A stretch of 64,000 bases of DNA from a virus (IMGVR_UViG_3300025659_000002:1-64000), one strand, 5' to 3'; positions 3,594 through 58,371 are shown, counted from the stretch's first letter. Notes: generated by a model not told the origin, from the letters alone. Numbers and translations are program-made.

Positions 3594-3602
3594 ATAAATT
3601 AG

Positions 3603-3674
3603 AGCCTAGGGAAGGAGTTGAACCTCCATTTCTCTTAGCGGACTAAGAGCGTCTTACCATTAGACGACCACGGC
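3603..3674 (-). tRNA. tRNA-like element with 8-nt (or self-pairing) anticodon loop, anticodon region AGTCCGCT
   Basis: GCCGTGG-TC-GTCTAATGGTAAGAC-G-CTCTT-AGTCCGCT-AAGAG-AAAT-GGAGG-TTCAACT-CCTTC-CCTAGGC-T. The anticodon arm is an 18-nt perfect palindrome (7-bp stem plus 4-nt loop, or 5-bp stem plus 8-nt loop). Two acceptor-stem mismatches. Confidence 0.35.
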
Positions 3675-8565: not shown

Positions 8566-8633
8566 CAGCGCGGATTGGATTCGAACCAATGTCTAGGGTA
8601 TCCCCTAACTCTACCCTGCTGAGATACCGCCCC
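8566..8633 (-). tRNA. tRNA-like element (68 nt) with truncated anticodon arm
   Basis: GGGGCGG-TA-TCTCAGCAGGGTAGAG...ATTGG-TTCGAAT-CCAAT-CCGCGCT-G. The anticodon position holds TAGGG-GATA-CCCTA (4-nt loop). Lies between the vWA and PP2C genes. Confidence 0.35.
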
Positions 8634-22675: not shown

Positions 22676-22697
22676 GTTATCTCCTTTTTCTTATACC

Positions 22698-24817: not shown

Positions 24818-25537
24818 TTAATTATTTTCTATTAAATATACATGTTTTTCAATGTAATCTTTACCCCTAGCTGAGGCAAACACTGGGATATTCATATCTG
24901 GGTGGTTATTGTCTATACAGTACCCTTGTCGTCTTAAACTAGAGAAGTCATCAAAATTAATTCCTATCTTTTTGGATAGAAGATGTTTTATATTCTCAAC
25001 ACTTCTCATGTGAAGTTCTTTCTGAGAGAAATGCTCTCTTCCTACCATCTGGACAGCGTTGCGTATAGCATCTTGTTGTCTCCAGATATAATAGTTTGTC
25101 ACTTCATCTTTTGCCAAATTAAAAGCTCTAGCATCAAACTGCACTTTTTCGCCAGTTATTGAATAAAAGTTAGTGCTTACGATAGCTGCTGTAATTGATA
25201 CTATTTTCTGTATGGAATTATTGAACCACGACTGTGTGTTATGAGTTTTATAATCCGTTAATAAAAAACTGATCTCATCAGATTGACCATAGCAAAACTT
25301 TGTTGACTGCATATCTTCCATAGAAGCCCTAGCAGTTTCCATCATATTTGCAGAGAATCCGGTAGACCATCCTCTTCCATATAATTTTCTTGTAAGAGTG
25401 TGAAACGCTCTACCGTCTACTCTTATTATTACTGGCATTCTTTTGTGAAGCTTGTATTTATAGGTAGCTTCATAATCTTTCATACGATCACCTAGTGGGG
25501 TTCCGTCTCCCATATTATTTAGTCTCCTCTTTTTCAT
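24818..25537 (-). CDS. Thg1-like 3'-5' nucleotidyltransferase (tRNA-His guanylyltransferase family)
   Basis: PVIIRVDGRAFHTLT (RxDGRxF motif) and YGQSDEISFLL (catalytic SDE); 239 aa. Confidence 0.65.
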   Translation of the reverse strand: MKKRRLNNMGDGTPLGDRMKDYEATYKYKLHKRMPVIIRVDGRAFHTLTRKLYGRGWSTGFSANMMETARASMEDMQSTKFCYGQSDEISFLLTDYKTHNTQSWFNNSIQKIVSITAAIVSTNFYSITGEKVQFDARAFNLAKDEVTNYYIWRQQDAIRNAVQMVGREHFSQKELHMRSVENIKHLLSKKIGINFDDFSSLRRQGYCIDNNHPDMNIPVFASARGKDYIEKHVYLIENN

Positions 25538-25800: not shown

Positions 25801-26424
25801 CTATAGTAATCCTTGTCTTTCTGCGATTGCTATAAGTGTTTCATTTGGTACTTTACGATTTCCTATACTCAATCCTGTGTCTTCAAAGACTATTACGTCG
25901 CCGTCAAGGAATATTAATGGAGTTGTTTTAACATCTAACACTCTGGAACAGAAGCCAGCTCTAAACAAATGACCTCCCTCTAATCCCGATTGTAATAACA
26001 CATCCATGGCGTTTATACCGCGGTAATAACGTGGACCCGACACCTCACATACCGTTGTAACAGTTTCTATATATTCGTCCATGTATCCATGCCAACTACG
26101 CCATTCTTTATCCGCATGAATACGTGCGAAATCGCCTTCTCTGAAAGCTACTCCATGAGGAGCTTCTGCTTTTATTCCATTTTGATTAAATAATCCCTGT
26201 AGTCCTGAATCAAGTTGTACTCCATATATAGTAATATTTTGGTCCTGGGGATTAATTGCTGAATCCATAATTATTCCCAAGTCACCATTAGCTCCTACTG
26301 AGTGGTATTCCTGGTATTTATCGAGACCAAGTTTTCTCGCCATTTCTTCATAGCCACTATATTGTTGCCCAACGTGGGTTATAGACACTAAAGTATTTTT
26401 AGGGATTATATTATAGTCAATCAT
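25801..26424 (-). CDS. paralog family A member 1 (C-terminus ...ERQGLL)
   Basis: Shares its C-terminal RQGLL tail with the next two genes. Confidence 0.5.
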   Translation of the reverse strand: MIDYNIIPKNTLVSITHVGQQYSGYEEMARKLGLDKYQEYHSVGANGDLGIIMDSAINPQDQNITIYGVQLDSGLQGLFNQNGIKAEAPHGVAFREGDFARIHADKEWRSWHGYMDEYIETVTTVCEVSGPRYYRGINAMDVLLQSGLEGGHLFRAGFCSRVLDVKTTPLIFLDGDVIVFEDTGLSIGNRKVPNETLIAIAERQGLL

Positions 26425-26832
26425 TTACAGTAAGCCTTGTCGTTCTAGTACAATTTTAATAGTATCATTATCGATACATTGGCATCCTACCTGGATATCA
26501 TCCTCACTAAAGACTACTTCATGTTCACCTATATACAAGGTTTCCTCTTCTATTTCTTCTGGCTCCACTCTCATAAGAACGAAGAAAGGATATGAATTAC
26601 CGTCTGATAACTCTATTCCTGTGTTAGAGTTTTTGCCTAGATTTGTTATTTTAAGGATATGCTCCTCTTCAACAGCCTCGGTCATCTCATGGATCCAGCT
26701 GTCTCCCCAACCCATTTCACCATCTTCAGCTGTTCTAACAACTTTAATAGATTCTCCTACTTCGAAGTCAGTGGCCTCGCTTAAAGTCATGTAGGCCATA
26801 CTTAGTTTTGCGCTTGTTTCGCTATTGTTCAT
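26425..26832 (-). CDS. paralog family A member 2 (VVRTAEDGEMGWGDSW, ...ERQGLL)
   Basis: Shares the RTAE-GEMGWG and RQGLL motifs. Confidence 0.5.
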   Translation of the reverse strand: MNNSETSAKLSMAYMTLSEATDFEVGESIKVVRTAEDGEMGWGDSWIHEMTEAVEEEHILKITNLGKNSNTGIELSDGNSYPFFVLMRVEPEEIEEETLYIGEHEVVFSEDDIQVGCQCIDNDTIKIVLERQGLL

Positions 26833-26861
26833 TGTTTGTTTCCTTTATTTTAAAAGATTTA

Positions 26862-27500
26862 TTAGTTTCTGGCAATGATGCCTTGTTTTTTGGCAACAGT
26901 TAATAATTGATCGTTGGATATAGTTAGGTTTCCAACCCTTACATACTCTTTGTGGAAGTGCATAATAGATCCATCAAAGACTAGGGCTACGTCTTCCACA
27001 AACTCTAAAACAAACCAAGGTACCCAGTACGGGTTATCTCCCTCTAGGTCTTCAATTTCATAACTATTGTGATCTTTATTAGTAATTCTATATAAATCGC
27101 CAACATCACAATCGTCTAATTCTTCAGGCCACTCCTCTGCCCATCCATATTCATCTTCTTCTGCAGTTCTGACTAATTTTACTAAATTGCCTGTTTTCAG
27201 CTCACACTTTGCGTGGTATTCCTCAAAAATTCCATATAATGAGTTAGTGTTTGTATCTGGTTCTAGTACAAACCATGGATACCATCTAGTTCCGGCTGGT
27301 GTATCTAACATAATTCCCTGTCTAGGGTCTACAGCTGTTACTGTATAAATATGGTCCACTGTACTGTTCATGTCCGTTGTCCAAACACAGCCGTACCCCA
27401 TTTCGCCAGTTTTAGCCGTTCTAATGACTCTTACTTTATCCCTGACTCTAATATTGCAGTTTTCAGTAAATCGTCTATATAATTCTCGTTCGTTAGTCAT
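26862..27500 (-). CDS. paralog family A member 3 (two VRTA-x-GEMGYG/EYGWA repeats)
   Basis: Internal duplication of the family domain; C-terminal KKQGII. Confidence 0.5.
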   Translation of the reverse strand: MTNERELYRRFTENCNIRVRDKVRVIRTAKTGEMGYGCVWTTDMNSTVDHIYTVTAVDPRQGIMLDTPAGTRWYPWFVLEPDTNTNSLYGIFEEYHAKCELKTGNLVKLVRTAEEDEYGWAEEWPEELDDCDVGDLYRITNKDHNSYEIEDLEGDNPYWVPWFVLEFVEDVALVFDGSIMHFHKEYVRVGNLTISNDQLLTVAKKQGIIARN

Positions 27501-27660
27501 TTGACTTTTCCTTATTTTTATTGTTTATAATAAATGTTGTTTATGTTTGATGTCATATATACTTATGGCTGTGTTTCGCGCTTCGGCGGTGGAAGATCCA
27601 TAGGTAATACACATTTTTGGTTAGAGACGGTTCCTCGGTTCCTAGACCCAGACTCCGTCA

Positions 27661-27706
27661 GGTTGATAGCTTGATAGCTTGATAGCTTGATAGCTTGATA
27701 GCTTAG
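27661..27706. repeat. tandem repeat (GCTTGATA)x6
   Basis: gcttgatagcttgatagcttgatagcttgatagcttgatagctt read directly from the sequence. Confidence 0.9.
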
Positions 27707-28665
27707 TCAGAAAATAGTTTAGATTCGCCATAGTTGTTATACGTATTATCTATACTGTCATTATGGTCATAGTAGTCATCAGCTGGCATTCCAACTGTTT
27801 TAATAAAAGCTTCAGATAGCTCAGCATGTGTAGGTATTTTAGGGTTTACTTCTAATGACCATAAGGGATATGACCACTTTACTAAACTTTCATCTGCAAA
27901 TATACTACGTTTGTCGGTAATGTCGAGATTAGGTTTTAACCATACACGAGCATTATGTATATCTACGCGATCTACAATAGCAAATCTACCAATTGCTTCA
28001 TCCATATTAGGAATCCAACAAGCTTTAGCTCCCAAATATTCATCTGGCACTTTAGTAACTATCTTTACTGAGTCACCAGCGTGTATATAAGACTCTAATA
28101 ATATTGAGTAAGCTTCTTTTATAGAAAGGTCTTGAAGTACGGCGCCAAATACGCTATCTTCCTCTTTACGTACGTCTTCTGCAATTACTTCAGAAATTAA
28201 CTTAGGAACTAATAAAGAAGTATAATTATTACTACTGCAGACGCTGGTAGTTTCTTCTAATTCTATCTTCTTTAAGCACCATATAGGGAAATAGCATTTA
28301 ACTGCTGCTAATATTGTTTCAGTTGTATGTGTAAATATGCCTCTTTCGGAATACCAAATTGGATCTTCGCATAAAGTTACGCCATTCACGTAGGAACGTC
28401 TGTGCCCGAAAGGAGCGTTTGATAGTGTTTCAGGCGAGTCTATTATATGTATACCTTCAACTATAAATCTATGCCCTATTGTTACATCCATTTCTGGTAT
28501 CCAGTCCGTTGACCAGCCTAGCTTTTTACTAATGTCGCTAGTGTCTGAGGGGCTGTTGATTGTGTATGGATTTAGGACTTCTACTATATCTCCTGGCTTT
28601 AGATACGAACTTTGTAAAGTTTCATAAGCCTTTCTTAATATGATATTTTTGGGGGTGTTATTCAT
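27703..28665 (-). CDS. paralog family B member 1 (YPLWSL motif protein, 320 aa)
   Basis: Shares the KPGD..V, W.PEMD..IGH.F.V and YPLWSL motifs with 28747..29343. Confidence 0.5.
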   Translation of the reverse strand: MNNTPKNIILRKAYETLQSSYLKPGDIVEVLNPYTINSPSDTSDISKKLGWSTDWIPEMDVTIGHRFIVEGIHIIDSPETLSNAPFGHRRSYVNGVTLCEDPIWYSERGIFTHTTETILAAVKCYFPIWCLKKIELEETTSVCSSNNYTSLLVPKLISEVIAEDVRKEEDSVFGAVLQDLSIKEAYSILLESYIHAGDSVKIVTKVPDEYLGAKACWIPNMDEAIGRFAIVDRVDIHNARVWLKPNLDITDKRSIFADESLVKWSYPLWSLEVNPKIPTHAELSEAFIKTVGMPADDYYDHNDSIDNTYNNYGESKLFSD

Positions 28666-28746
28666 ATTTGTGTTTCCTTTAATATGTTAAGTTAGTGTGT
28701 TGAATTAATATTGTTTATTATTCTGAAAGTATAATTTACTATATGT

Positions 28747-29343
28747 TTAAGTAAAGAGAGAAGGGGTTACCTCATATCCTTGTGATGGCTTGTTTAATGG
28801 TCCATCTTCTGGATAAGTGCAAGATACATCAGCTGGCTTTGGAGGAGCCAAGGTGCCATCTTTGTCAACAACAAAATTTAAGTCTATATATTCAATTGAT
28901 TGTCTCATTTGTATGCTTACATTTATAGAATCTATTTGTTCTATCATATTTTTATCTAATGTTGTACTTAGATTTCTACGAATTTCATTACTTACAGCTT
29001 TGAGTACATCTGGGTTTTTTGGATACATTGGATGTGGAGGTACTATCTTTTGTAGACTCCATAGCGGGTATAGATAGTTACTAGCGTAGTCAATTGCTTC
29101 GTACTCCTCAGTATCTACGGTATCTTTTAATATAATACTATATTTTGGATGCATCTTAAGAGATATACCGCTATATTCTAATTTGTTTACGATAAATACA
29201 TGACCTATTGCTGGGTGCATATAGTATTCCCAGGAATATGGGTTCCCTGCAAAGTGGCGTGATGTTCGGTGAGTAACTAGTACTACATCACCGGTTTTTA
29301 AATAGGAGTTATATAATGAAGTATATTCGGACGTGTGTGTCAT
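28747..29343 (-). CDS. paralog family B member 2 (start trimmed to MTHTSEY)
   Basis: ORF track 28747..29574; the N-terminal 77 codons are low-complexity translation of the iteron region, so the ATG at about 29343 was used. Confidence 0.45.
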   Translation of the reverse strand: MTHTSEYTSLYNSYLKTGDVVLVTHRTSRHFAGNPYSWEYYMHPAIGHVFIVNKLEYSGISLKMHPKYSIILKDTVDTEEYEAIDYASNYLYPLWSLQKIVPPHPMYPKNPDVLKAVSNEIRRNLSTTLDKNMIEQIDSINVSIQMRQSIEYIDLNFVVDKDGTLAPPKPADVSCTYPEDGPLNKPSQGYEVTPSLFT

Positions 29344-29399
29344 TTTAGTGAGTTCCTGGTTAATTTTGATTGTAATTTTTGTAATAATTTGTGTGTTTT

Positions 29400-30440
29400 G
29401 GGACAATTTATTGGTAAAAAGAGCGCAAAAGTGGTCAAAAGGTGGTTGAAAGTGGTAAGCAATTGGTCGAAAGTGGTAACGAAAGTGCTCAAAGTGGTAA
29501 AGAAAAGTGTAGTTTTGGTAAGACCTATATGTTGTGTAATGGGTATATAGCTTGTGTACGATATAGTTCTGCACAACATATGGGTAACCTATATAGCTGC
29601 TTGCTCTATCTAAAATAGAAATACACTGGCTTTTTTTGATGGTTTTTTTACCACTTTTGATGTTTTGCTTACCAGTTTGGGGCGTTCGCTTACCACTTTA
29701 GGGGGGTTGGCTTACCAGTTTGGGGGTTTTGCTTACCAGTGCCATTTTGGTCGAAATTGGGTGTAAGTATAGGTAAATAATAAAGATAAGAGAAAAGTAT
29801 AAAAAATCCAAACTACACTTTTGAATCCATTACTACACCATTACTACACATAGTAAAAAAATATATGTATATATAATAACAATAACTTATTTGGTCTAAA
29901 CTACGATTACTACGATTACTACGCTTTCTGGAAGGAGAGACACGTCAGCAAATATTTATAAATTGTCGATCTCTTTTTTTTCTGATTAAGGACCCTCTAG
30001 TTTTGGCCTAAAAGTGTAGTAATGTAGTTTAGTATTGATAAGTGTATGTAAATAAAGAATATATCCAAACTACACTTTTGAAAATAGGTGTAGTAACGTG
30101 TAGTAATGAAATTGGTAATTGCTATAAATGCTTAAAAATACTGATGTTATAGATAAAAAAAAGTGTAGTTTAGAATTTGGAAATATTTCCTTAATTAGGA
30201 TACGCTTGTCTTTTTAGTATATAAATGATGGTGTAAGTGATGGTGTAAATGGTGTTCCGTGCAGGCTACAAGCCTACTTTTTCCTAAAGTTAATTACAAG
30301 CGGTTTGCTAGCAACCAACTTGTGTTCTCCTTAGTACGCATTATTGATATATATGCTAACGGAACATTCAGGAAGTTTAATGGCCTTTCGAGAAGAAAAA
30401 GATAGCACGGCCAATTACGGCCAATTATTCTTCTTCAGGA
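29400..30440. repeat. non-coding iteron-rich region
   Basis: 29431-29512: about 7 phased copies of AAAGTGGTAA-like decamers. 29640-29745: about 5 inverted copies (GCTTACCAGTTTGGGG). Two copies of CCAAACTACACTTTTGAA (29808, 30065) and several GTGTAGTAA/TACTACGATTACTAC units. No plausible ORF. Confidence 0.8.
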
Positions 30441-30450
30441 TGTAGTAGTA

Positions 30451-31272
30451 TTATTTGGTTGTGGTGTCTGCTTTTGATACTAAATCTTCAGCACAAGGTA
30501 CATAGACTGACTCATAAGTTACTGAATCTTGTTTGTTAGCTATGTGAGCTAACCCACGCCAGGCTGCTTCAGGTAAGTTCATACATCCTAGTTTTCTGAT
30601 GGTACCGTTTTCTCTGTATCTTATGTTGTATCCGAAAAGCCTTTGAGGTTTTGGGTCTTGTAGGTGTTTGTAGTTGAACCCTGGATAGAAGAATGTGCTC
30701 TTACCCGGAATTAGGTGAGTCTCGTTCTCATACTCATCGCTGTAGTTTTTTAAGGAGTGTATTCGAAATATTGGCTCTAAATAAGAGTCCAGAGCGCTAT
30801 CGATTATTACACATAGCTCGTCATTTCCAACATTTCCAGGTATTTGAACAATATCACCTTCACAAGGAGTTGTAACTTTTGAGGGGTTGTATAGCTTTCT
30901 TATAAGATCTTTAGAAAACATAATTGATCGAGCATCTGTAGCAGAATATACTATAAATGCACCTTTCAACATTGCAAACACAAAGTCTTTAGAGCTGAAC
31001 AACACTTTAGGTACTAACTCTCTGGGGTAGTATATATTAAAGGCTGAGTGAGATAATTTAGCTCCTGAGCTATATAGTAATAGATGAGGAGTGTCTACAG
31101 ATACGCTGTCTTGTTGCATTACTGTTACAACATTATTATTGATATCAGTACATATTCGTAGATGACCTATTAACTCGTCAATGCTTTGCTGACTAGACAT
31201 AAGATAATAGAGCCTTGACATATAGTCTTCTACTGCTAGATTAGCTATTTGGGGATGGTCTTTGAGATTCAT
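30451..31272 (-). CDS. paralog family C member 1 (PCEGD motif protein, 273 aa)
   Basis: Shares the PCEGD[IV]V and RLFGYN motifs with the next two genes. Confidence 0.5.
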   Translation of the reverse strand: MNLKDHPQIANLAVEDYMSRLYYLMSSQQSIDELIGHLRICTDINNNVVTVMQQDSVSVDTPHLLLYSSGAKLSHSAFNIYYPRELVPKVLFSSKDFVFAMLKGAFIVYSATDARSIMFSKDLIRKLYNPSKVTTPCEGDIVQIPGNVGNDELCVIIDSALDSYLEPIFRIHSLKNYSDEYENETHLIPGKSTFFYPGFNYKHLQDPKPQRLFGYNIRYRENGTIRKLGCMNLPEAAWRGLAHIANKQDSVTYESVYVPCAEDLVSKADTTTK

Positions 31273-31273
31273 G

Positions 31274-31990
31274 TTATCCTTTCATTGCGTTTTTTAGAAG
31301 TAAGTCCCATAATTTGGGGTCAATATCTTGGCAACCTACATTTGATATAGCATTTCTTTCTTTATTGTAAGTTGTACAATTACTACCAAATAGAAATTTG
31401 GGAGTAGGGTCTTGTAAAAACTCACAATCTAATAGGTCTGTGTACTCTATGCCTATTTCATAATCATCTACTATTCTAGTACATCTCATCATTAGTTTAT
31501 TACCCGCTATGCAGGCGTCCAAGATCATAACCATCTCACCAGTTTTAGTTCTTACTACGTCACCTTCACAGGGTTGGTTGGTGTGGTCGCTTCGTCGTAT
31601 TTTTCTAATGAGGTTTTTTGTAAATACCCAGATTTCATCTCCGTGTAGTAATAAGTAGGCTTCTCCTATGTCGGCAACAATATAATCGTTTGTTCCATCC
31701 TTATCATAAATAATGTTAGGTATGAGGTGTTCAGGGTATGTGTAAGTTTTTAGCTTTTTGATGGGCGCGAGGTCCCCTATATGAGTTGAGTGCCAGGTTC
31801 TATAAGGCAGTTGTTGATTCATAGGGAAGCCGGGTTTAGAGAACCACATAAACACAGCACCCTCCTGAGTTCGCTGTATTGAGATGTCTTTAAGTTTAAA
31901 AGTGTTGTATCCGCTCAGAACTTCGTCATATAAATGCAGATAAGCTTGTACTAAGGATAGATGATATTTGTTAATAATATGTTGTAGCAT
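31274..31990 (-). CDS. paralog family C member 2 (238 aa)
   Basis: NQPCEGDVV, FLFGSN. Confidence 0.5.
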   Translation of the reverse strand: MLQHIINKYHLSLVQAYLHLYDEVLSGYNTFKLKDISIQRTQEGAVFMWFSKPGFPMNQQLPYRTWHSTHIGDLAPIKKLKTYTYPEHLIPNIIYDKDGTNDYIVADIGEAYLLLHGDEIWVFTKNLIRKIRRSDHTNQPCEGDVVRTKTGEMVMILDACIAGNKLMMRCTRIVDDYEIGIEYTDLLDCEFLQDPTPKFLFGSNCTTYNKERNAISNVGCQDIDPKLWDLLLKNAMKG

Positions 31991-32011
31991 ATTTATTCCT
32001 TTTTTAATAGT

Positions 32012-32698
32012 TTAAAAATAATCGTTGTTGGCGGATTCAAGTAACACGTCCCACAAGGATTTAGTGATCCTATGACATCCAATTTGAACAATCCGGGACT
32101 GAGAACCCTCATTAGTAAATCTGGCGTGATACCCGAACAATCGAGGTGGTCTTTTGGTTTGTAAAAATTCACAAGAATTTACAAAGCTCATAGATACCTC
32201 ACGATCGTAGCCCCGAGTGGTGGCTATAGAATAATTGAAAAGATTATTATTTTCTTGAAGAGTTACATAATTTATAGTATGTGGGGTATCTTCAAATAAT
32301 ATAACATCACCTTCGCAGGGTACCAGTACTTTAGTAGGAAGGCCTATCTTACGTATCAAGTTTTTGGAAATATATATATAATCGGAAAGTTCATGATGAT
32401 ACACTAAAAAATGATTTCTAAAAGCTGCGTAAATTGCTGTACCACTTTTACTTAACACTGTAGGCTTTAATTCTTCTGGAAACTCATAATGGTGAATCGT
32501 TTTGGTAGGAGGTAAGCCTGTATAGCTACGAGAATAAGCTGTGTATTTTCCTGTAGACAACACATACCCTATCGAAACATCGCCGAATATAGTTCTCTGT
32601 ATAATAACTGGAGTATGTATGTCCCCCATTCTATGTTGCAGGGACATATATTCTTTAGCAAGTTCATATGTTAATTTGTCTGTAATAGTTTTAAGCAT
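32012..32698 (-). CDS. paralog family C member 3 (228 aa)
   Basis: LVPCEGDVI, RLFGYHARF. Confidence 0.5.
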   Translation of the reverse strand: MLKTITDKLTYELAKEYMSLQHRMGDIHTPVIIQRTIFGDVSIGYVLSTGKYTAYSRSYTGLPPTKTIHHYEFPEELKPTVLSKSGTAIYAAFRNHFLVYHHELSDYIYISKNLIRKIGLPTKVLVPCEGDVILFEDTPHTINYVTLQENNNLFNYSIATTRGYDREVSMSFVNSCEFLQTKRPPRLFGYHARFTNEGSQSRIVQIGCHRITKSLWDVLLESANNDYF

Positions 32699-32982: not shown

Positions 32983-33014
32983 TCTTATACCTACAAATTT
33001 AAGGTAAAAAAAAG
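32983..33014 (-). promoter_or_regulatory. variant copy of the recurrent promoter-like motif
   Basis: gtcttatacctacaaatttaaggtaaaaaaaag, about 75 nt upstream of the 32903 start codon. Confidence 0.35.
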
Positions 33015-34114
33015 AATACGCTTGTAAGATGGCACAGAGTGCACGGGCGTAAGGCCAATTTTTCAGGTGGCTTTCCTGGTATTCTTTTTATGGAAGATGA
33101 GAGTGGCTGAGGGGTAAACTCTTCTTCCGAGGGATGCAACTCCCTTTGCGAGACTTATTAATCCCCGCACCACCTACGTTAAGTAGGAAGCCCTATCTTA
33201 AATTCTTTTCCAAATTGAAGGCTCTAGCCTTGCAACTCCTTCGGATAGACACCCAACGTTTTTATTACGTCTTTGGCCCAGTTTTATGAAGTTTGTACTT
33301 TTCCTGAGAATACAGTTAGTACGGTATATCTTTAAAGGGATCATTTCAATTCCCCTCGTTTCCACGCAGACTTACGTCGTCGTAATACACCAATCACAGC
33401 TCCAGGTATGGAGCCAGGTCTTTCCACTTACATTAACTCTACAATTTCACGACTATCTTAGCTGCCGCCAAGCTTAACCGCTTCCTTATAAATACTGCTG
33501 CAACCCTTGCGAGGCGCAGAGCTCGACGTTATACAGGCCGATATTAGTGATCTTTTATTATAAGCAGCCAGGAATCTAATTGCTTTCATTATAAATGACG
33601 AGAATCGAACTCGTGATCTACGGATTAATATTCCGTTGCTCTACCAACTGAGCTACATTATGGTTTTTCTGTGATTGGGAGGACGCGTTCCCGGTTGTGG
33701 TTACGTAGTTTTCAGCCACATAATGCCACTCGCCCTCGTAAGTCATTAGCCATGACAGCCTCCGATCCTTCATCATAGTAGTTGTCTCTTCTTGACTTAG
33801 AAGCCAATGAAGGCCTCAATATCTTGATCCCGACAAACTATATAATTGATAACCCGCTTGACAGACAGGATATCTTGCGATTACTATACAGACATTTCTG
33901 CCTACCCCTCAGGGGATACGTATCTCGACCTTCACGCCTCGCAGTTAGCCTGGAGTGTTGGACTATTTTTTACAAGATAAATAGAAGTTCGCAGTGTATA
34001 AATGTTTGCACTCCCGAAGGAGAACAACGCAATGCCAGGTATAATTTCACAGACCCGACTGCTTTTAGTCCCATTGCTGGGGTTATCTTTAACTGGATGT
34101 CATACCACCCAGGT
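33015..34114 (-). ncRNA. GC-enriched ORF-poor island, candidate large structured ncRNA with embedded tRNA-like element
   Basis: About 1.1 kb at roughly 45% GC against about 33% background, with no convincing ORF. Bounded by promoter-like motifs at 34146 (oriented toward it) and 32983. Confidence 0.35.
33590..33662 (-). tRNA. degenerate tRNA-like element (anticodon loop ATATTAA; acceptor stem does not pair)
   Basis: CATAATG-TA-GCTCAGTTGGTAGAGC-A-ACGGA-ATATTAA-TCCGT-AGATC-ACGAG-TTCGATT-CTCGT-CATTTAT. Canonical D-, anticodon- and T-arms but unpaired acceptor arms (both sides contain ATAATG as a direct repeat). Confidence 0.35.
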
Positions 34115-34155
34115 GCTAATTAAGGCTAAGCCTTGATTGCGAAATTCTTATACCA

Positions 34156-40440: not shown

Positions 40441-40872
40441 TTATTTTAAAACTTTTTCCCCAGATTTCAACATTTTTTCCCGGTGCTTATGGCAGGCCCA
40501 TACTTCTTTTAAGTCACTTCTCTTAAGAGTCACGGTATTTATAATATCCCAACCATAGCCCTGAATAGCTACTTCAAGCCTAATCCGTAAGATTTTAGGC
40601 CCATAGGTTCCATGTAGGCGCATACGGGTTAAAATTCCTTCGGGAGATAATGTATAGGTATCCGTGCCCCCAGGCCATGCTAAACCTATCTTAATTCTCC
40701 CAAAAGGTGAATATTTCAATTTATCAAGCACTTGTTTTAAAACTGAGTATTTATATATATGACAACCAACCCTTAATCCTTCATGATGCGGTACAATATT
40801 CCTATTAATAACCTCATGATCGAGCGCTCCTATGCGTTCCTTGACTTTCCAAGGCCATTTATCATTCATCAC
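40441..40872 (-). CDS. paralog family D member (VGC...PFG...FKRSDLKEVW family)
   Basis: Conserved LRVGCHIYKYSVL..L.YSPFG..KIG and LKRSDLKEVW blocks shared with four other genes. Confidence 0.5.
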   Translation of the reverse strand: MMNDKWPWKVKERIGALDHEVINRNIVPHHEGLRVGCHIYKYSVLKQVLDKLKYSPFGRIKIGLAWPGGTDTYTLSPEGILTRMRLHGTYGPKILRIRLEVAIQGYGWDIINTVTLKRSDLKEVWACHKHREKMLKSGEKVLK

Positions 40873-41270
40873 AACTTCTCCATAATAGCTACTATACTCC
40901 GGTTATAAGCCCACATGTCCTTTAAAACTTTCCTTTTAAAATAGACGGTGTTTACAGGCCACCAAGAACCTTGCCAGCTGATCCCTTCAACAGCGACCCT
41001 TACAATTTTAGGCCCAAACCGAACATTTAATCGAGCGTTATATAGAACATTTTCGGAAAAATCATAAAGTTTTAAATCAACAACATCTTCTATAGCAAGC
41101 CTAAATTCCCCAAACGGTAAATATCTCATTGAGGAAACTATTTTATCCAAAATACTTATGCCGAAACATAGGCAACCTACCTTTACAACCTCAGTATCTA
41201 CGATAATACCTCTAGTAACCTGCATACTCTTTAACTGTTCATCTGCAGTCCATTTATATTCTTGCATCAT
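40869..41270 (-). CDS. paralog family D member
   Basis: VKVGCLCFGISIL...YLPFG...FKRKVLKDMW. Confidence 0.5.
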   Translation of the reverse strand: MMQEYKWTADEQLKSMQVTRGIIVDTEVVKVGCLCFGISILDKIVSSMRYLPFGEFRLAIEDVVDLKLYDFSENVLYNARLNVRFGPKIVRVAVEGISWQGSWWPVNTVYFKRKVLKDMWAYNRSIVAIMEKL

Positions 41271-41770
41271 AAAATTGTCTCCTTATCTTTTTGTAAATCC
41301 TCTTTGATATTATTAGCGGTTAACGTATCAGCTTTTAGCTGAAGCTTTGCAGCTTCCCGCTCTCTAACCAATAACTCTCTCCATAACTCTCTAAGATCTG
41401 ATTTTTTAAATACAAGATCCTGCAAAACTATGTCGTAGTTTATACCCCAGCCAGTAGTAACAATAATTTTTCTTATTCTTACCTTCCTAAGACCCCAACT
41501 CATTTTTAGAAGTGTGGCACTAACTCCAGGACTCGGGGTTTCACGGGTGCTAAGCCCAAAAATGCCACCACGATCGCGTATATACAAATCACCTCGGCCA
41601 AATGGCCACATAACTTTTCTTAGGGCGAGTTCTAATACAGACTTGTGAAAATTATTACAGCCTATATTTACAAGCATACCGTGTTTTTCAGACTCCCATA
41701 ACCTTATACCTAGCTTATGGGGTAGGCGGCTATTATAGTATTCTGCGTGTCTCATATTAACGCCTTCCAT
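41267..41770 (-). CDS. paralog family D member
   Basis: VNIGCNNFHKSVL...WPFG...FKKSDLRELW. Confidence 0.5.
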   Translation of the reverse strand: MEGVNMRHAEYYNSRLPHKLGIRLWESEKHGMLVNIGCNNFHKSVLELALRKVMWPFGRGDLYIRDRGGIFGLSTRETPSPGVSATLLKMSWGLRKVRIRKIIVTTGWGINYDIVLQDLVFKKSDLRELWRELLVREREAAKLQLKADTLTANNIKEDLQKDKETIL

Positions 41771-42138
41771 GCTTTTTTTAGGTCTGATTTATAGAATACA
41801 AGATCTTCTATCACAGAAGCTTCTGAAAATCCCCAACCTTGATAAATCTTTTGTATTCTTAGTTTTCTAGGACTATAACTAACCTTTAAATATGCACGAT
41901 GTGGAGCTGTGTTAACGCCTTCTACGTAAAAAATATCCGTATGGACTATTTCTATAGAGAACTTACCAAATAGCCCTTTAGAACGATGTATTATCTTTTC
42001 CAATAACTCTACCCCATACCTTTCACATCCTACTTTTAAATAAGATCCGCCACCCGCGTCGGTAAACCGCATAGAGTATACACTATAGTGAGCACACACG
42101 CTTCGACGGGCTTTCTTGTGCGGACGGGTCTCAAACAT
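41752..42138 (-). CDS. paralog family D member
   Basis: LKVGCERYGVELL...GLFG...FYKSDLKKAW. Confidence 0.5.
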   Translation of the reverse strand: MFETRPHKKARRSVCAHYSVYSMRFTDAGGGSYLKVGCERYGVELLEKIIHRSKGLFGKFSIEIVHTDIFYVEGVNTAPHRAYLKVSYSPRKLRIQKIYQGWGFSEASVIEDLVFYKSDLKKAWKALI

Positions 42139-45995: not shown

Positions 45996-46421
45996 TTATA
46001 GAGGCCAAGTACTCTCGTGAGTTTCTATAGCTTTTTTCATTTCTTTAAAAACTTTTCTTTTAAAATGAAAGTTTTCTTGAGTAACCCAACTAGGGTATGT
46101 GTGCCATTGGCACTTAGTTTGTAATAATATGTATACATTTACAAACCCATAACGAACTTTAAGCCTAGTTTCTCTTTCAGGTATAGACACATATCGTTTT
46201 TTATAGAAGTAATGCCCATTGCAGTCTCTCTTTATGAATACATTAAACCACCCAAAAGGGTATCTTCTTAGTTTGCTAATAACCTTCATTAGCACAGATT
46301 TATTAAATCTTCTACAACCTATGGCTACTCCGTCAGCATAAAGATTAATTCGACGTGAGTCTTCCATTAATCCCCGATCTACAGCTTCCCATTTATCTGA
46401 TATCAAGTATACAAAATTCAT
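45996..46421 (-). CDS. paralog family D member (5th copy, detached)
   Basis: VAIGCRRFNKSVL...RYPFG...FKRKVFKEMKKA. Confidence 0.5.
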   Translation of the reverse strand: MNFVYLISDKWEAVDRGLMEDSRRINLYADGVAIGCRRFNKSVLMKVISKLRRYPFGWFNVFIKRDCNGHYFYKKRYVSIPERETRLKVRYGFVNVYILLQTKCQWHTYPSWVTQENFHFKRKVFKEMKKAIETHESTWPL

Positions 46422-58026: not shown

Positions 58027-58371
58027 ATGGATAAAGCACAACACGTGTTTATGAAATACGCTGAGCGTAATAAACGTAAACCTAATCGTCTATTATTAGA
58101 TTTAGCCCCAGGAGCATTATCTGGGACTGTTACCAGTTTATTGCTTCACCCCTTAGATACCCTACAAGTTCGTCGTCAGACGGCTCCTCCCTCTCAAAAT
58201 GTTGACTTTAATAAACCTCCTAAACTTACGAAACCAATAGGTAAATTAAAGGCTTTTAAATCTTTGTATAAAGGTTTAGGATTAAAATTGTTACGTAACA
58301 TTCCAACGTTAGCTATAGGATTTGGTACCTACGGAGTTACTAAAGACTATCTAGACAAAAAATATAAATAG
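58027..58371 (+). CDS. MDKA-motif protein 1 (114 aa)
   Basis: Starts MDKAQHVFMKYAE (ORF track 57985..58371 trimmed to the ATG with RBS aagga). Confidence 0.5.
   Translation: MDKAQHVFMKYAERNKRKPNRLLLDLAPGALSGTVTSLLLHPLDTLQVRRQTAPPSQNVDFNKPPKLTKPIGKLKAFKSLYKGLGLKLLRNIPTLAIGFGTYGVTKDYLDKKYK

What the first reader, a model, noticed from the sequence alone, without database searches (positions are those of the whole stretch)
29344..30450. 1.1 kb non-coding region built from phased and inverted iterons (AAAGTGGTAA / TTACCACTTT) plus CCAAACTACACTTTTGAA and GTAGTAA repeats
About 7 direct decamers spaced about 11 bp apart (29431-29512) face about 5 inverted copies (29640-29745) across an about 130-bp AT-rich core. 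Further right are two exact 18-mers and several TAGTAA/TACTAC units. The listed ORFs here are low-complexity artefacts. The architecture resembles iteron-type replication origins or a large operator or centromere-like protein-binding array. Genes on both sides run the same direction, so it is not a divergent promoter region.
Basis: seen in the sequence. Interest (0 to 1): 0.6.

Follow-up and report, generated by a model that had tools for sequence, protein, structure and literature searches.

The report
Phased iteron arrays in phage gap
The largest ORF-free gap in this stretch of an uncultivated, roughly 212-kb marine phage holds a real array of repeated protein-binding sites; it looks most like a replication origin, but that function cannot be shown from sequence alone.

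Summary
Window 29344-30450 is a true non-coding gap between two minus-strand genes and the longest ORF-free gap among my gene calls in the window.

Nine 21-bp units share an asymmetric 15-nt core, AAAsTGGTAAgcAAA. Four point right (29428-29500) and five point left (29648-29742). They flank about 147 bp between the innermost sites (120 bp between the arrays as delimited), and this core contains a 63-bp dyad.

A second motif family (AAAGTGTAGT / GTAGTAA, including two exact 18-mers) fills the AT-rich right half. That half contains some of the least stable DNA in the window.

Both motifs are at chance level elsewhere in the window, and no comparable arrays occur in the 10 kb fetched on either side. 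Only the core of each unit is conserved, which points to selected binding sites rather than a recent duplication.

The region is not coding, not a decayed paralogue, not a known RNA family and not one of the phage's own promoters.

Function is unresolved. My best guess is an iteron-type replication origin (about 0.35). Against it: no initiator, partition, integrase or small-terminase gene was recognised within the window plus 10 kb either side, there are no DnaA boxes, and GC skew does not switch sign here.

No relatives carry the locus, so conservation could not be tested.

A GOLLD giant RNA with an embedded tRNA lies 3 kb away.

The parts
29344..29427 (-). Leader and 5' flank of the 198-aa gene (ATG at 29343). 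GC is 28.6% and there is no repeat motif.
29428..29520 (+). Array A. Four strong sites (AAAGTGGTCA at 29428; AAAGTGGTAA at 29449, 29470 and 29491) lie exactly 21 bp apart. Degenerate half-step sites lie at 29439, 29460, 29482 and 29504; the last is an exact copy of the family-2 motif AAAGTGTAGT.
29523..29585 (.). Central dyad. The arms ACCTATATGTTGTG and CACAACATATGGGT can form a 16-bp-stem hairpin or cruciform. TATATAGCT occurs at 29544 and 29590. The core as delimited (29521-29640) is 34% GC, so not AT-rich.
29641..29745 (-). Array B. Five inverted sites (TTACCAsTTT on the + strand at 29648, 29669, 29690 and 29712, and a weaker one at 29733) are spaced 21-22 bp, with G-rich spacers. The innermost A and B sites are 157 bp apart, about 15 helical turns.
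29808..29825 (-). First exact 18-mer, CCAAACTACACTTTTGAA. Its reverse complement holds AAAAGTGTAGTTTGG and a -35-like TTCAAA, followed 18 nt later by TATACT.
29827..29848 (-). Tandem 11-mer CCATTACTACA x2 (family-2 sites in minus orientation).
29850..29889 (.). Least stable duplex segment of the gap and third least stable 40-mer in the 64-kb window. It is the candidate unwinding element.
29900..29925 (-). Tandem 9-mer ACTACGATT x2.7 (family-2 sites in minus orientation).
30009..30175 (+). Right cluster of family-2 sites, mostly in plus orientation: AAAAGTGTAGTAATGTAGTTTAGTA (30009), GTGTAGTAAC x1.9 (30088) and AAAAGTGTAGTTTAG (30159). The second exact 18-mer (30065-30082) is in minus orientation.
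30222..30251 (.). 12-bp tandem TAAATGATGGTG x2.5. An independent assembly of the same phage has a run of N exactly here.
30254..30366 (-). Possible small structured RNA or 3'-UTR element on the minus strand, closed by TGTTCCGT / ACGGAACA (the left arm begins at 30253). It rests on folding energy only (z -3.2 to -3.7); no covariation test was possible.
30398..30436 (-). Intrinsic terminator of the upstream three-gene operon. The 'ACGGCCAATT x2' repeat is its hairpin (z -3.9).

Best explanation
The gap is a cis-acting platform on which a sequence-specific DNA-binding protein assembles into a large complex. Most likely it is an origin, or the origin, of phage DNA replication.

Proposed mechanism (all steps inferred):
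1. A phage-encoded initiator recognises the asymmetric 15-nt site AAAsTGGTAAgcAAA.
2. It binds cooperatively to nine sites set two helical turns apart, four pointing right and five pointing left. All sites therefore lie on one face of the helix.
3. The two opposed arrays pair or wrap the DNA across the intervening core and its dyad.
4. The resulting strain opens the easily melted AT-rich DNA about 105 bp to the right (29850-29889).
5. That stretch is bracketed by a second set of related sites (AAAGTGTAGT / GTAGTAA), which may bind the same protein, a relative of it, or a helicase loader.

Shown: the sites, their phasing, their restriction to this gap, core-only conservation, low duplex stability next door, and the absence of coding, known-RNA and phage-promoter signals.

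Inferred: that a protein binds, which protein it is, and that replication starts here.

Confidence is about 0.85 that this is a multi-site protein-binding element and about 0.35 that it is an origin.
For: - Nine 21-bp units share a 15-nt asymmetric core while their spacers differ, as expected for selected binding sites rather than a recent duplication.
- Spacing is exactly 21 bp (21-22 bp in array B), and the innermost A-to-B distance is 157 bp, about 15 turns.
- Both motif families are strongly enriched here and at chance level in the rest of the window. Site-by-site motif scans of the right extension (L013) found only scattered single sites, and a tandem-repeat search of both 10-kb extensions found no comparable array.
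- Asymmetric 17-22-bp sites in helical phase next to easily melted DNA define classical iteron origins (established knowledge: lambda ori, P1 oriR, R6K, pPS10).
- 29850-29889 is the third least stable 40-mer in the window. 30025-30224 and 29764-29963 are the second and sixth least stable 200-mers.
- The region is not coding and holds no paralogue remnants. It matches no Rfam family.
- It holds none of the phage's own promoters: the best promoter-matrix score here is 5.9, against at least 20.8 for the 14 real sites that pass the scan threshold.
- Unrelated phages carry arrays of a near-identical motif in or beside replication genes. In L007 inverted arrays lie just downstream of a 766-aa protein with a DnaB-like N-terminus, which I read as a helicase-primase-type replication protein. 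In L003 they lie beside VRR-NUC and SNF2 genes. In L010 they lie inside an initiator-like gene beside a beta clamp.
Against: - No initiator, helicase loader, primase or polymerase gene was recognised within the window or 10 kb either side. The nearest replication-type gene is an SNF2 helicase 32 kb away.
- The flanking genes are a lineage-specific family and Mind-bomb-type SH3-repeat proteins, neither a known DNA binder.
- The region has no DnaA boxes.
- GC3 skew has the same sign on both sides of the gap. The local minimum of cumulative skew near 28 kb comes from eight flanking genes of odd composition, not from a switch at the gap.
- The DNA between the two arrays is not AT-rich.
- An array with the same motif in another phage lies next to a tRNA and an integrase, so the motif itself says nothing about function.
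- No relatives were available, so conservation is untested.
Confidence: 0.35

Rival explanations
1. It is an operator hub around a regulated promoter. The downstream operon (the 198-aa gene through Thg1) needs its own promoter, because the upstream operon ends in a strong terminator. A repressor would bind both arrays, loop or coat the intervening DNA, and switch off a promoter in or next to the core. This resembles ParR on parC, or Rep proteins on inverted iterons.
For: - A strong terminator lies at 30398-30436.
- The phage's standard promoter is absent from the gap, and the next one downstream is at 22690.
- Sigma-70-like candidates lie on the minus strand at 29825-29796 (TTCAAA-18-TATACT) and 29900-29873.
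- Array A ends only 85 bp from the start codon.
Against: - Nine or more sites plus a second motif family spread over 750 bp is far more than known phage operators use.
- Promoter-like hits are no more frequent than in shuffled sequence: 10 found against 11.9 expected.
- No DNA-binding regulator was recognised among the adjacent genes.
Confidence: 0.2
2. It is a packaging, terminal or injection-control site: a pac-type site, a terminal-repeat boundary or concatemer junction, or a T5-style injection-stop region. A terminase small subunit or another protein would bind the two arrays and DNA would be cut or held in the core.
For: - Two site clusters flanking a central cleavage region is the layout of P1 pac and SPP1 pac (established knowledge).
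- In T7 all genes run one way across a repeat-rich junction (established knowledge).
- Assemblies tend to break here. One scaffold has an N gap at 30226-30248. The 273-aa gene is found in 74 blocks of the contig collection against 60 for the 198-aa gene, and most of the excess is in 2-5-kb contigs.
Against: - The only terminase-like gene seen (GpA_ATPase) is about 40 kb away.
- All 24 of the longest contigs read span the gap, so it is not an unbridged fixed end.
- It has no DnaA boxes, unlike the T5 iss region.
- The assembly break sits in the 12-bp tandem repeat, not in the arrays.
Confidence: 0.12
3. It is a centromere-like site for positioning or partitioning phage DNA, like parC of plasmid R1 or tubC of TubZRC systems. 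An adaptor protein would coat the phased repeats and a filament-forming NTPase would move the complex.
For: Two clusters of phased 10-21-bp repeats upstream of an operon resemble parC (two sets of five 11-bp repeats around the par promoter) and pSK41 parC (20-bp repeats built of 10-bp sub-repeats); this is established knowledge. The phasing is shown.
Against: - The two clusters are inverted here, whereas in parC they are direct.
- No ParA, ParM, TubZ, PhuZ or ribbon-helix-helix gene was recognised in the window or its flanks.
- Gene content (13-14 tRNA genes, RNA repair, NAD salvage) looks like a lytic jumbo phage rather than a plasmid prophage.
Confidence: 0.08
4. It works at the RNA level. 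The gap would be transcribed as a long leader or non-coding RNA in which the two complementary arrays pair (for example as an RNase III site), or it would hold an unclassified RNA gene.
For: - The arrays are 72% complementary over 57 nt.
- The minus-strand RNA 29344-29660 folds better than shuffles, z -2.7.
- The minus-strand element 30254-30366 has z -3.2 to -3.7.
- A giant RNA gene (GOLLD) lies 3 kb away in the same phage.
Against: - No Rfam match at E<=1 other than one chance-level hit lying in the adjacent gene (29218-29277, 16.9 bits, E 0.78).
- Strict 21-bp periodicity with unconserved spacers fits DNA recognition, not RNA pairing.
- Most 120-nt windows in the gap show no structure signal on either strand.
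- GC is low, at 33%.
Confidence: 0.05
5. It is functionless repeat debris, for example slippage products or the remnant of a mobile element.
For: It is single-copy and lineage-specific with no conservation data. The 12-bp tandem repeat looks unstable.
Against: - The phage packs its genes tightly elsewhere.
- Conservation is limited to a 15-nt core across nine units, with exact helical phasing and two opposed orientations.
- It is the same in the 24 assemblies read: neighbouring genes are identical, and one was compared at DNA level.
- No other copy exists, as a mobile element would have.
Confidence: 0.05

Closest known systems
Iteron-type theta origins (phage lambda ori, P1 oriR, plasmids R6K, pPS10, F)
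   Same: Several asymmetric sites of about 15-22 bp lie two helical turns apart on one face of the DNA, with easily melted AT-rich DNA nearby. Extra inverted copies occur in several of these systems.
   Different: In those systems the initiator gene overlaps or adjoins the iterons, and DnaA boxes are usual. Here no initiator was recognised within about 30 kb and there are no DnaA boxes. The arrays are two opposed sets around a dyad, and a second motif family is present.
SaPI (Staphylococcus pathogenicity island) origins and archaeal ORB-type origins
   Same: Two sets of initiator sites flank the region to be opened. In archaea the sets are inverted, so that helicases load in opposite directions.
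   Different: The DNA between the arrays here is not AT-rich; the unstable DNA lies to one side. There is no adjacent Rep-helicase or Orc1/Cdc6 gene. The resemblance is recalled from the literature, not tested.
parC centromere of plasmid R1 (ParMRC) and pSK41 parC
   Same: Two clusters of phased short repeats lie immediately upstream of an operon, possibly enclosing its promoter. The 21-bp units are built from about 10.5-bp sub-repeats.
   Different: The clusters are inverted here and direct there. No ParM or ParR genes are present.
T5 injection-stop (iss) region
   Same: [quoted passage not shown]
   Different: The T5 iss region has eight paired DnaA boxes and lies in the terminal repeat. This region has no DnaA boxes, and its position relative to the genome ends is unknown.
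P1 pac and SPP1 pac sites
   Same: Two clusters of short repeated protein-binding elements flank a central region.
   Different: Those sites lie inside or next to the small-terminase gene. Here the only terminase-like gene is about 40 kb away.

Membership tests
Iteron-type replication origin | Three or more direct repeats of about 17-22 bp in helical phase | tested here: met
   There are four sites at exactly 21 bp and five at 21-22 bp, sharing a 15-nt core.
Iteron-type replication origin | Adjacent AT-rich DNA-unwinding element | tested here: inconclusive
   The third least stable 40-mer of the window (29850-29889) lies 105 bp from array B, but other intergenic gaps are equally unstable. The core between the arrays is not AT-rich.
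Iteron-type replication origin | Cognate initiator (Rep) gene overlapping or adjacent | tested here: not met
   The flanking genes have no Rep or helix-turn-helix match. They are a lineage-specific family and SH3_15-type repeat proteins.
Iteron-type replication origin | Host-factor sites such as DnaA boxes | tested here: not met
   TTWTNCACA has no match in the region, and 5 in the window against 7.4 expected.
Iteron-type replication origin | Replication actually starts there (coverage peak, skew switch, replication intermediates) | not testable with these tools
   No reads were available. Only 84 kb of the ~212-kb genome was reachable, and within it skew follows transcription and does not switch at the gap.
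Type II / type III partition centromere (parC, tubC) | Clusters of phased repeats in the same orientation upstream of the par operon | tested here: not met
   The repeats are phased, but the two clusters are inverted relative to each other.
Type II / type III partition centromere (parC, tubC) | Adjacent NTPase (ParM, TubZ or ParA) and adaptor genes | tested here: not met
   No such Pfam or PHROG hit was found in the window or 10 kb either side.
pac / cos / terminal-repeat boundary | Lies in or beside the small-terminase gene, or at the contig or genome ends | tested here: not met
   The GpA_ATPase-like gene is about 40 kb away. All 24 longest contigs read span the gap.
pac / cos / terminal-repeat boundary | Read-start pile-up or coverage step | not testable with these tools
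   There was no access to raw reads.
T5-type injection-stop region | Paired DnaA boxes in conserved inverted repeats within the terminal repeat | tested here: not met
   There are no DnaA boxes.
attP with arm-type integrase sites | Adjacent integrase gene and a core shared with a host attB | tested here: not met
   No integrase hit was found among the scanned ORFs or the precomputed Pfam annotation. attB was not searched.
Known RNA families (Rfam 15) | Covariance-model match | tested here: not met
   The only match at E<=1 in 28500-31000 is a chance-level hit (RMST_1, 16.9 bits, E 0.78) in the adjacent gene, outside the gap; nothing in the gap at E<=0.01 in the whole-window scan.

The most novel reading that the evidence does not exclude
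The gap is the replication-control centre of an uncultivated ~212-kb marine jumbo-phage lineage. It would be run by an unrecognised initiator with no detectable similarity to known Rep proteins. Two opposed site arrays would load helicases in opposite directions, as at archaeal and eukaryotic-virus origins. The second, related motif (AAAGTG-TA-GTAA against AAAGTG-GTAA) would be read by a paralogous protein.
Probability: 0.12. Interest if true: 0.6.

Novelty: new member of a known kind. Interest (0 to 1): 0.35.

Why it matters
Origins and other cis-acting control sites of jumbo phages are almost unknown, and this lineage has no cultured member.

A defined 15-nt site repeated nine times is a ready bait for finding the protein that binds it. 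It is also a concrete locus to check in read-coverage data from the many metagenomes that contain this phage.

If it proves to be an origin, it would point to a new initiator family. If it proves to be a terminus or injection-control site, it would fix the physical map of the genome.

As it stands it is a well-built but functionally unassigned example of a familiar architecture.

Tried and rejected
**Comparative route (closed)**
- Megablast of the gap against 50,697 phage records found no match.
- tblastn of the 273-aa protein against phage records found none.
- IMG/VR holds no relative of the 198-aa protein.
- The 273-aa family, searched alone and as a profile, finds only its own three paralogues among 5.8 billion proteins.
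- A metagenome scan with the 18-mer gave 63 chance hits, none homologous.
- A genome scan with a two-site pattern gave 7-bp microsatellites and chance hits.
- Thg1 relatives at about 50% identity are similar-sized marine phages, but without synteny or comparable arrays.

**Genome walking**
- Look-ups are restricted to proteins encoded in the window, so only 10 kb either side was reachable.

**Alternatives tested on the sequence**
- Decayed paralogue: tblastn of every called window protein against the gap found nothing significant.
- Small ORFs: none is convincing.
- Phage promoter: none in the gap.
- Sigma-70 promoters: not enriched.
- DnaA boxes: none.
- RNA structure: only the dyad and 30254-30366 stand out.

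**Flanking proteins as candidate binders**
- AlphaFold on the 273-aa family failed, with pLDDT 41.
- The 135-aa paralogue gave pLDDT 64. Its best PDB match is the Mind bomb repeat at E 0.07, which is not significant.
- The family is a widespread SH3_15-type repeat.
- None of this is evidence for DNA binding.

**Literature**
- A search for the motif together with 'iteron' found nothing relevant.

Full report
**Context**

The window comes from a bacteriophage.
- Genes are tightly packed in long co-directional blocks.
- 56 of 89 genes have a Shine-Dalgarno motif.
- ARAGORN tRNA genes and Rfam adds two more tRNA matches.
- It encodes a tRNA-His guanylyltransferase (Thg1), polynucleotide kinase and two RNA ligases.
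- NAD-salvage genes and a lambda-GpA-type terminase ATPase lie just outside the window.

An identical Thg1 protein is deposited under a 'Candidatus Scalindua sp.' metagenome-assembled genome. It occurs on contigs up to 211,738 bp, so this is probably a ~212-kb marine phage that was mis-binned.

Its nearest sequenced relatives are very distant. The helicase is 35% identical to those of Pseudanabaena phage PA-SR01 and Salmonella phage Arash.

**The observation**

Region 29344-30450 lies between two minus-strand genes. The 273-aa gene stops at 30451 and the 198-aa gene starts at 29343. At 1107 bp it is the largest gap among my ORF calls, against 484 bp for the next.

The 275-aa GTG-extended ORF and the 58-79-aa ORFs over the arrays translate to periodic low-complexity peptides. 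No window protein leaves a remnant here.

**Module 1 (29428-29745)**

- Tandem Repeats Finder reports 21-bp arrays of 3.7 and 4.8 copies.
- Strong sites lie at 29428, 29449, 29470 and 29491 on the plus strand.
- Strong sites lie at 29648, 29669, 29690, 29712 and 29733 on the minus strand.
- Put in register, the nine units share AAAsTGGTAAgcAAA, while the other six positions are unconserved.
- The site is asymmetric.
- The innermost sites of the two arrays are 157 bp apart, about 15 turns.
- Between the arrays lies a 63-bp dyad (29523-29585) that folds with a 16-bp stem, z -2.6.
- This core is 34% GC, so it is not AT-rich.

**Module 2 (29746-30250, 27.5% GC)**

- A related motif, AAAGTGTAGT / GTGTAGTAA, differs from the first by a two-base insertion.
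- It occurs in minus orientation at 29808-29925 and mostly in plus orientation at 30009-30175. This includes the two exact 18-mers and the 11-, 9- and 10-bp tandems.
- 29850-29889 is the third least stable 40-mer of the window. The two 200-bp stretches covering this module rank second and sixth.

**Right edge**

- A 12-bp tandem repeat lies at 30222-30251. An independent scaffold of the same phage has a run of N at exactly this place.
- A minus-strand element at 30254-30366 folds unusually well.
- The terminator of the upstream operon lies at 30398-30436.

**Is it more than chance?**

AAAGTGGTAA with up to 1 mismatch has 19 matches in the window against 8.1 +/- 3.2 expected. Nine fall in the region and the other ten are at background level. 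AAAGTGTAGT has 17 matches against 7.3 expected, seven of them in the region. Site-by-site motif scans of the right extension found only scattered single sites, and a tandem-repeat search of both 10-kb extensions found no comparable array.

**What it is not**

- It matches no Rfam family.
- It does not carry the phage's own promoter. I found a lineage-specific promoter, GGGTATAAGAA, often preceded by TTTTTTTACCTTAAA, at about 15 minus-strand sites. A matrix built from them scores at most 5.9 in the gap, against at least 20.8 at the 14 real sites that pass the scan threshold.
- Sigma-70-like hits are not enriched.
- It has no DnaA boxes.

**Function**

Phased asymmetric sites with core-only conservation, unique in the genome and next to easily melted DNA, are the classic signature of an iteron-type origin. 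I rank that first, at about 0.35.

The case is weakened in five ways.
1. No replication initiator, partition protein, integrase or small terminase was recognisable within the window or 10 kb either side.
2. The upstream flanking genes are a three-member family found nowhere else.
3. The downstream flanking genes are five Mind-bomb-type SH3-repeat proteins from a widespread family with no known DNA-binding role.
4. Third-position GC skew is reversed in all eight flanking genes but has the same sign on both sides of the gap. The local minimum of cumulative skew near 28 kb is therefore not an origin-type switch.
5. Arrays of almost the same motif in unrelated phages lie in or beside replication genes in three cases, but beside a tRNA and an integrase in a fourth. 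The motif itself is therefore uninformative.

**Rivals**

- A regulated promoter with flanking operator arrays. The downstream operon does need a promoter after the terminator.
- A packaging, terminal or injection-control site. The T5 iss region is a close look-alike in general build, and assemblies tend to break here.
- A centromere-like site.
- An RNA-level role.

None can be excluded without read-level or experimental data.

**Comparison and novelty**

No collection holds a relative with this locus.

The architecture is a familiar kind, so I file it as a new, lineage-specific member with unassigned function.

Noticed in passing
window 33301-33738 (-), within the ORF-poor stretch 32990-34150: A GOLLD giant ornate RNA (RF02032) scores 124.8 bits, E 5e-34, which is below Rfam's gathering score of 150. 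A tRNA is embedded in it at 33590-33661 (58.7 bits) that ARAGORN missed. A phage-type promoter at 34147 (-) probably drives it. This is a second stretch of about 1.1 kb with no protein-coding gene in the window.
   Followed up: partly
window, about 15 minus-strand sites, e.g. 47584, 47895, 48187, 51119, 52912, 32984, 34147, 22690: A lineage-specific promoter motif, GGGTATAAGAA(g/t)(a/t)ATAG, is often preceded by a terminator T-run merging into TTTTTTTACCTTAAA. It is found only in front of minus-strand gene blocks and never before plus-strand genes.
   Followed up: partly
window 25801-32698: All eight genes flanking the gap have reversed third-position GC skew (-0.09 to -0.33 on the coding strand), whereas most other genes are near zero or positive. 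This could reflect different codon usage, an inverted segment or a foreign origin.
   Followed up: partly
window 25801-29343, 30451-32698, 40441-42138 and 45996-46421: There are three expanded paralogue families. The first is five Mind-bomb-type SH3-repeat proteins. The second is a three-gene family found nowhere else among 5.8 billion proteins. The third has five members. Many of these share a short 'VGC..I....L' motif.
   Followed up: partly
window 27663-27704: A perfect 8-bp tandem repeat, TTGATAGC x5.2, lies directly after the stop codon of the 320-aa gene.
   Followed up: no
window 58027-58371 (+): A 114-aa ORF matches one repeat of the mitochondrial carrier family (PF00153, E 1e-13), which is unusual for a bacteriophage.
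   Followed up: no
L011 11048-11147, equivalent to window 30226-30248: An independent scaffold of the same phage has 100 N inside the 12-bp tandem repeat, and the contig ends overlap by 23 bp. This suggests variable copy number or an assembly tangle.
   Followed up: partly
window 30254-30366 (-): An element of about 113 nt just downstream of the operon terminator folds into a closed multi-hairpin structure (z -3.2 to -3.7). It has no Rfam match, and covariation could not be tested.
   Followed up: partly
window 8566-8633 (-) and 3602-3674 (-): An extra tRNA-like Rfam hit (37.6 bits) was not called by ARAGORN. Separately, ARAGORN reports a tRNA with an undetermined two-base anticodon.
   Followed up: no
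L007 2370-2660; L003 12020-12175; L010 5300-5440; L009 5450-5660: Unrelated IMG/VR phages carry arrays of a near-identical motif (GTGGTAAC / CTTACCAC). In three the arrays lie beside or inside replication genes. In the fourth they lie beside a tRNA and an integrase.
   Followed up: partly
window 24818-25537 (Thg1) and the whole contig: An identical protein is deposited in NCBI as a hypothetical protein of a 'Candidatus Scalindua sp.' metagenome-assembled genome. That contig is probably a phage genome mis-binned into a bacterial genome.
   Followed up: no
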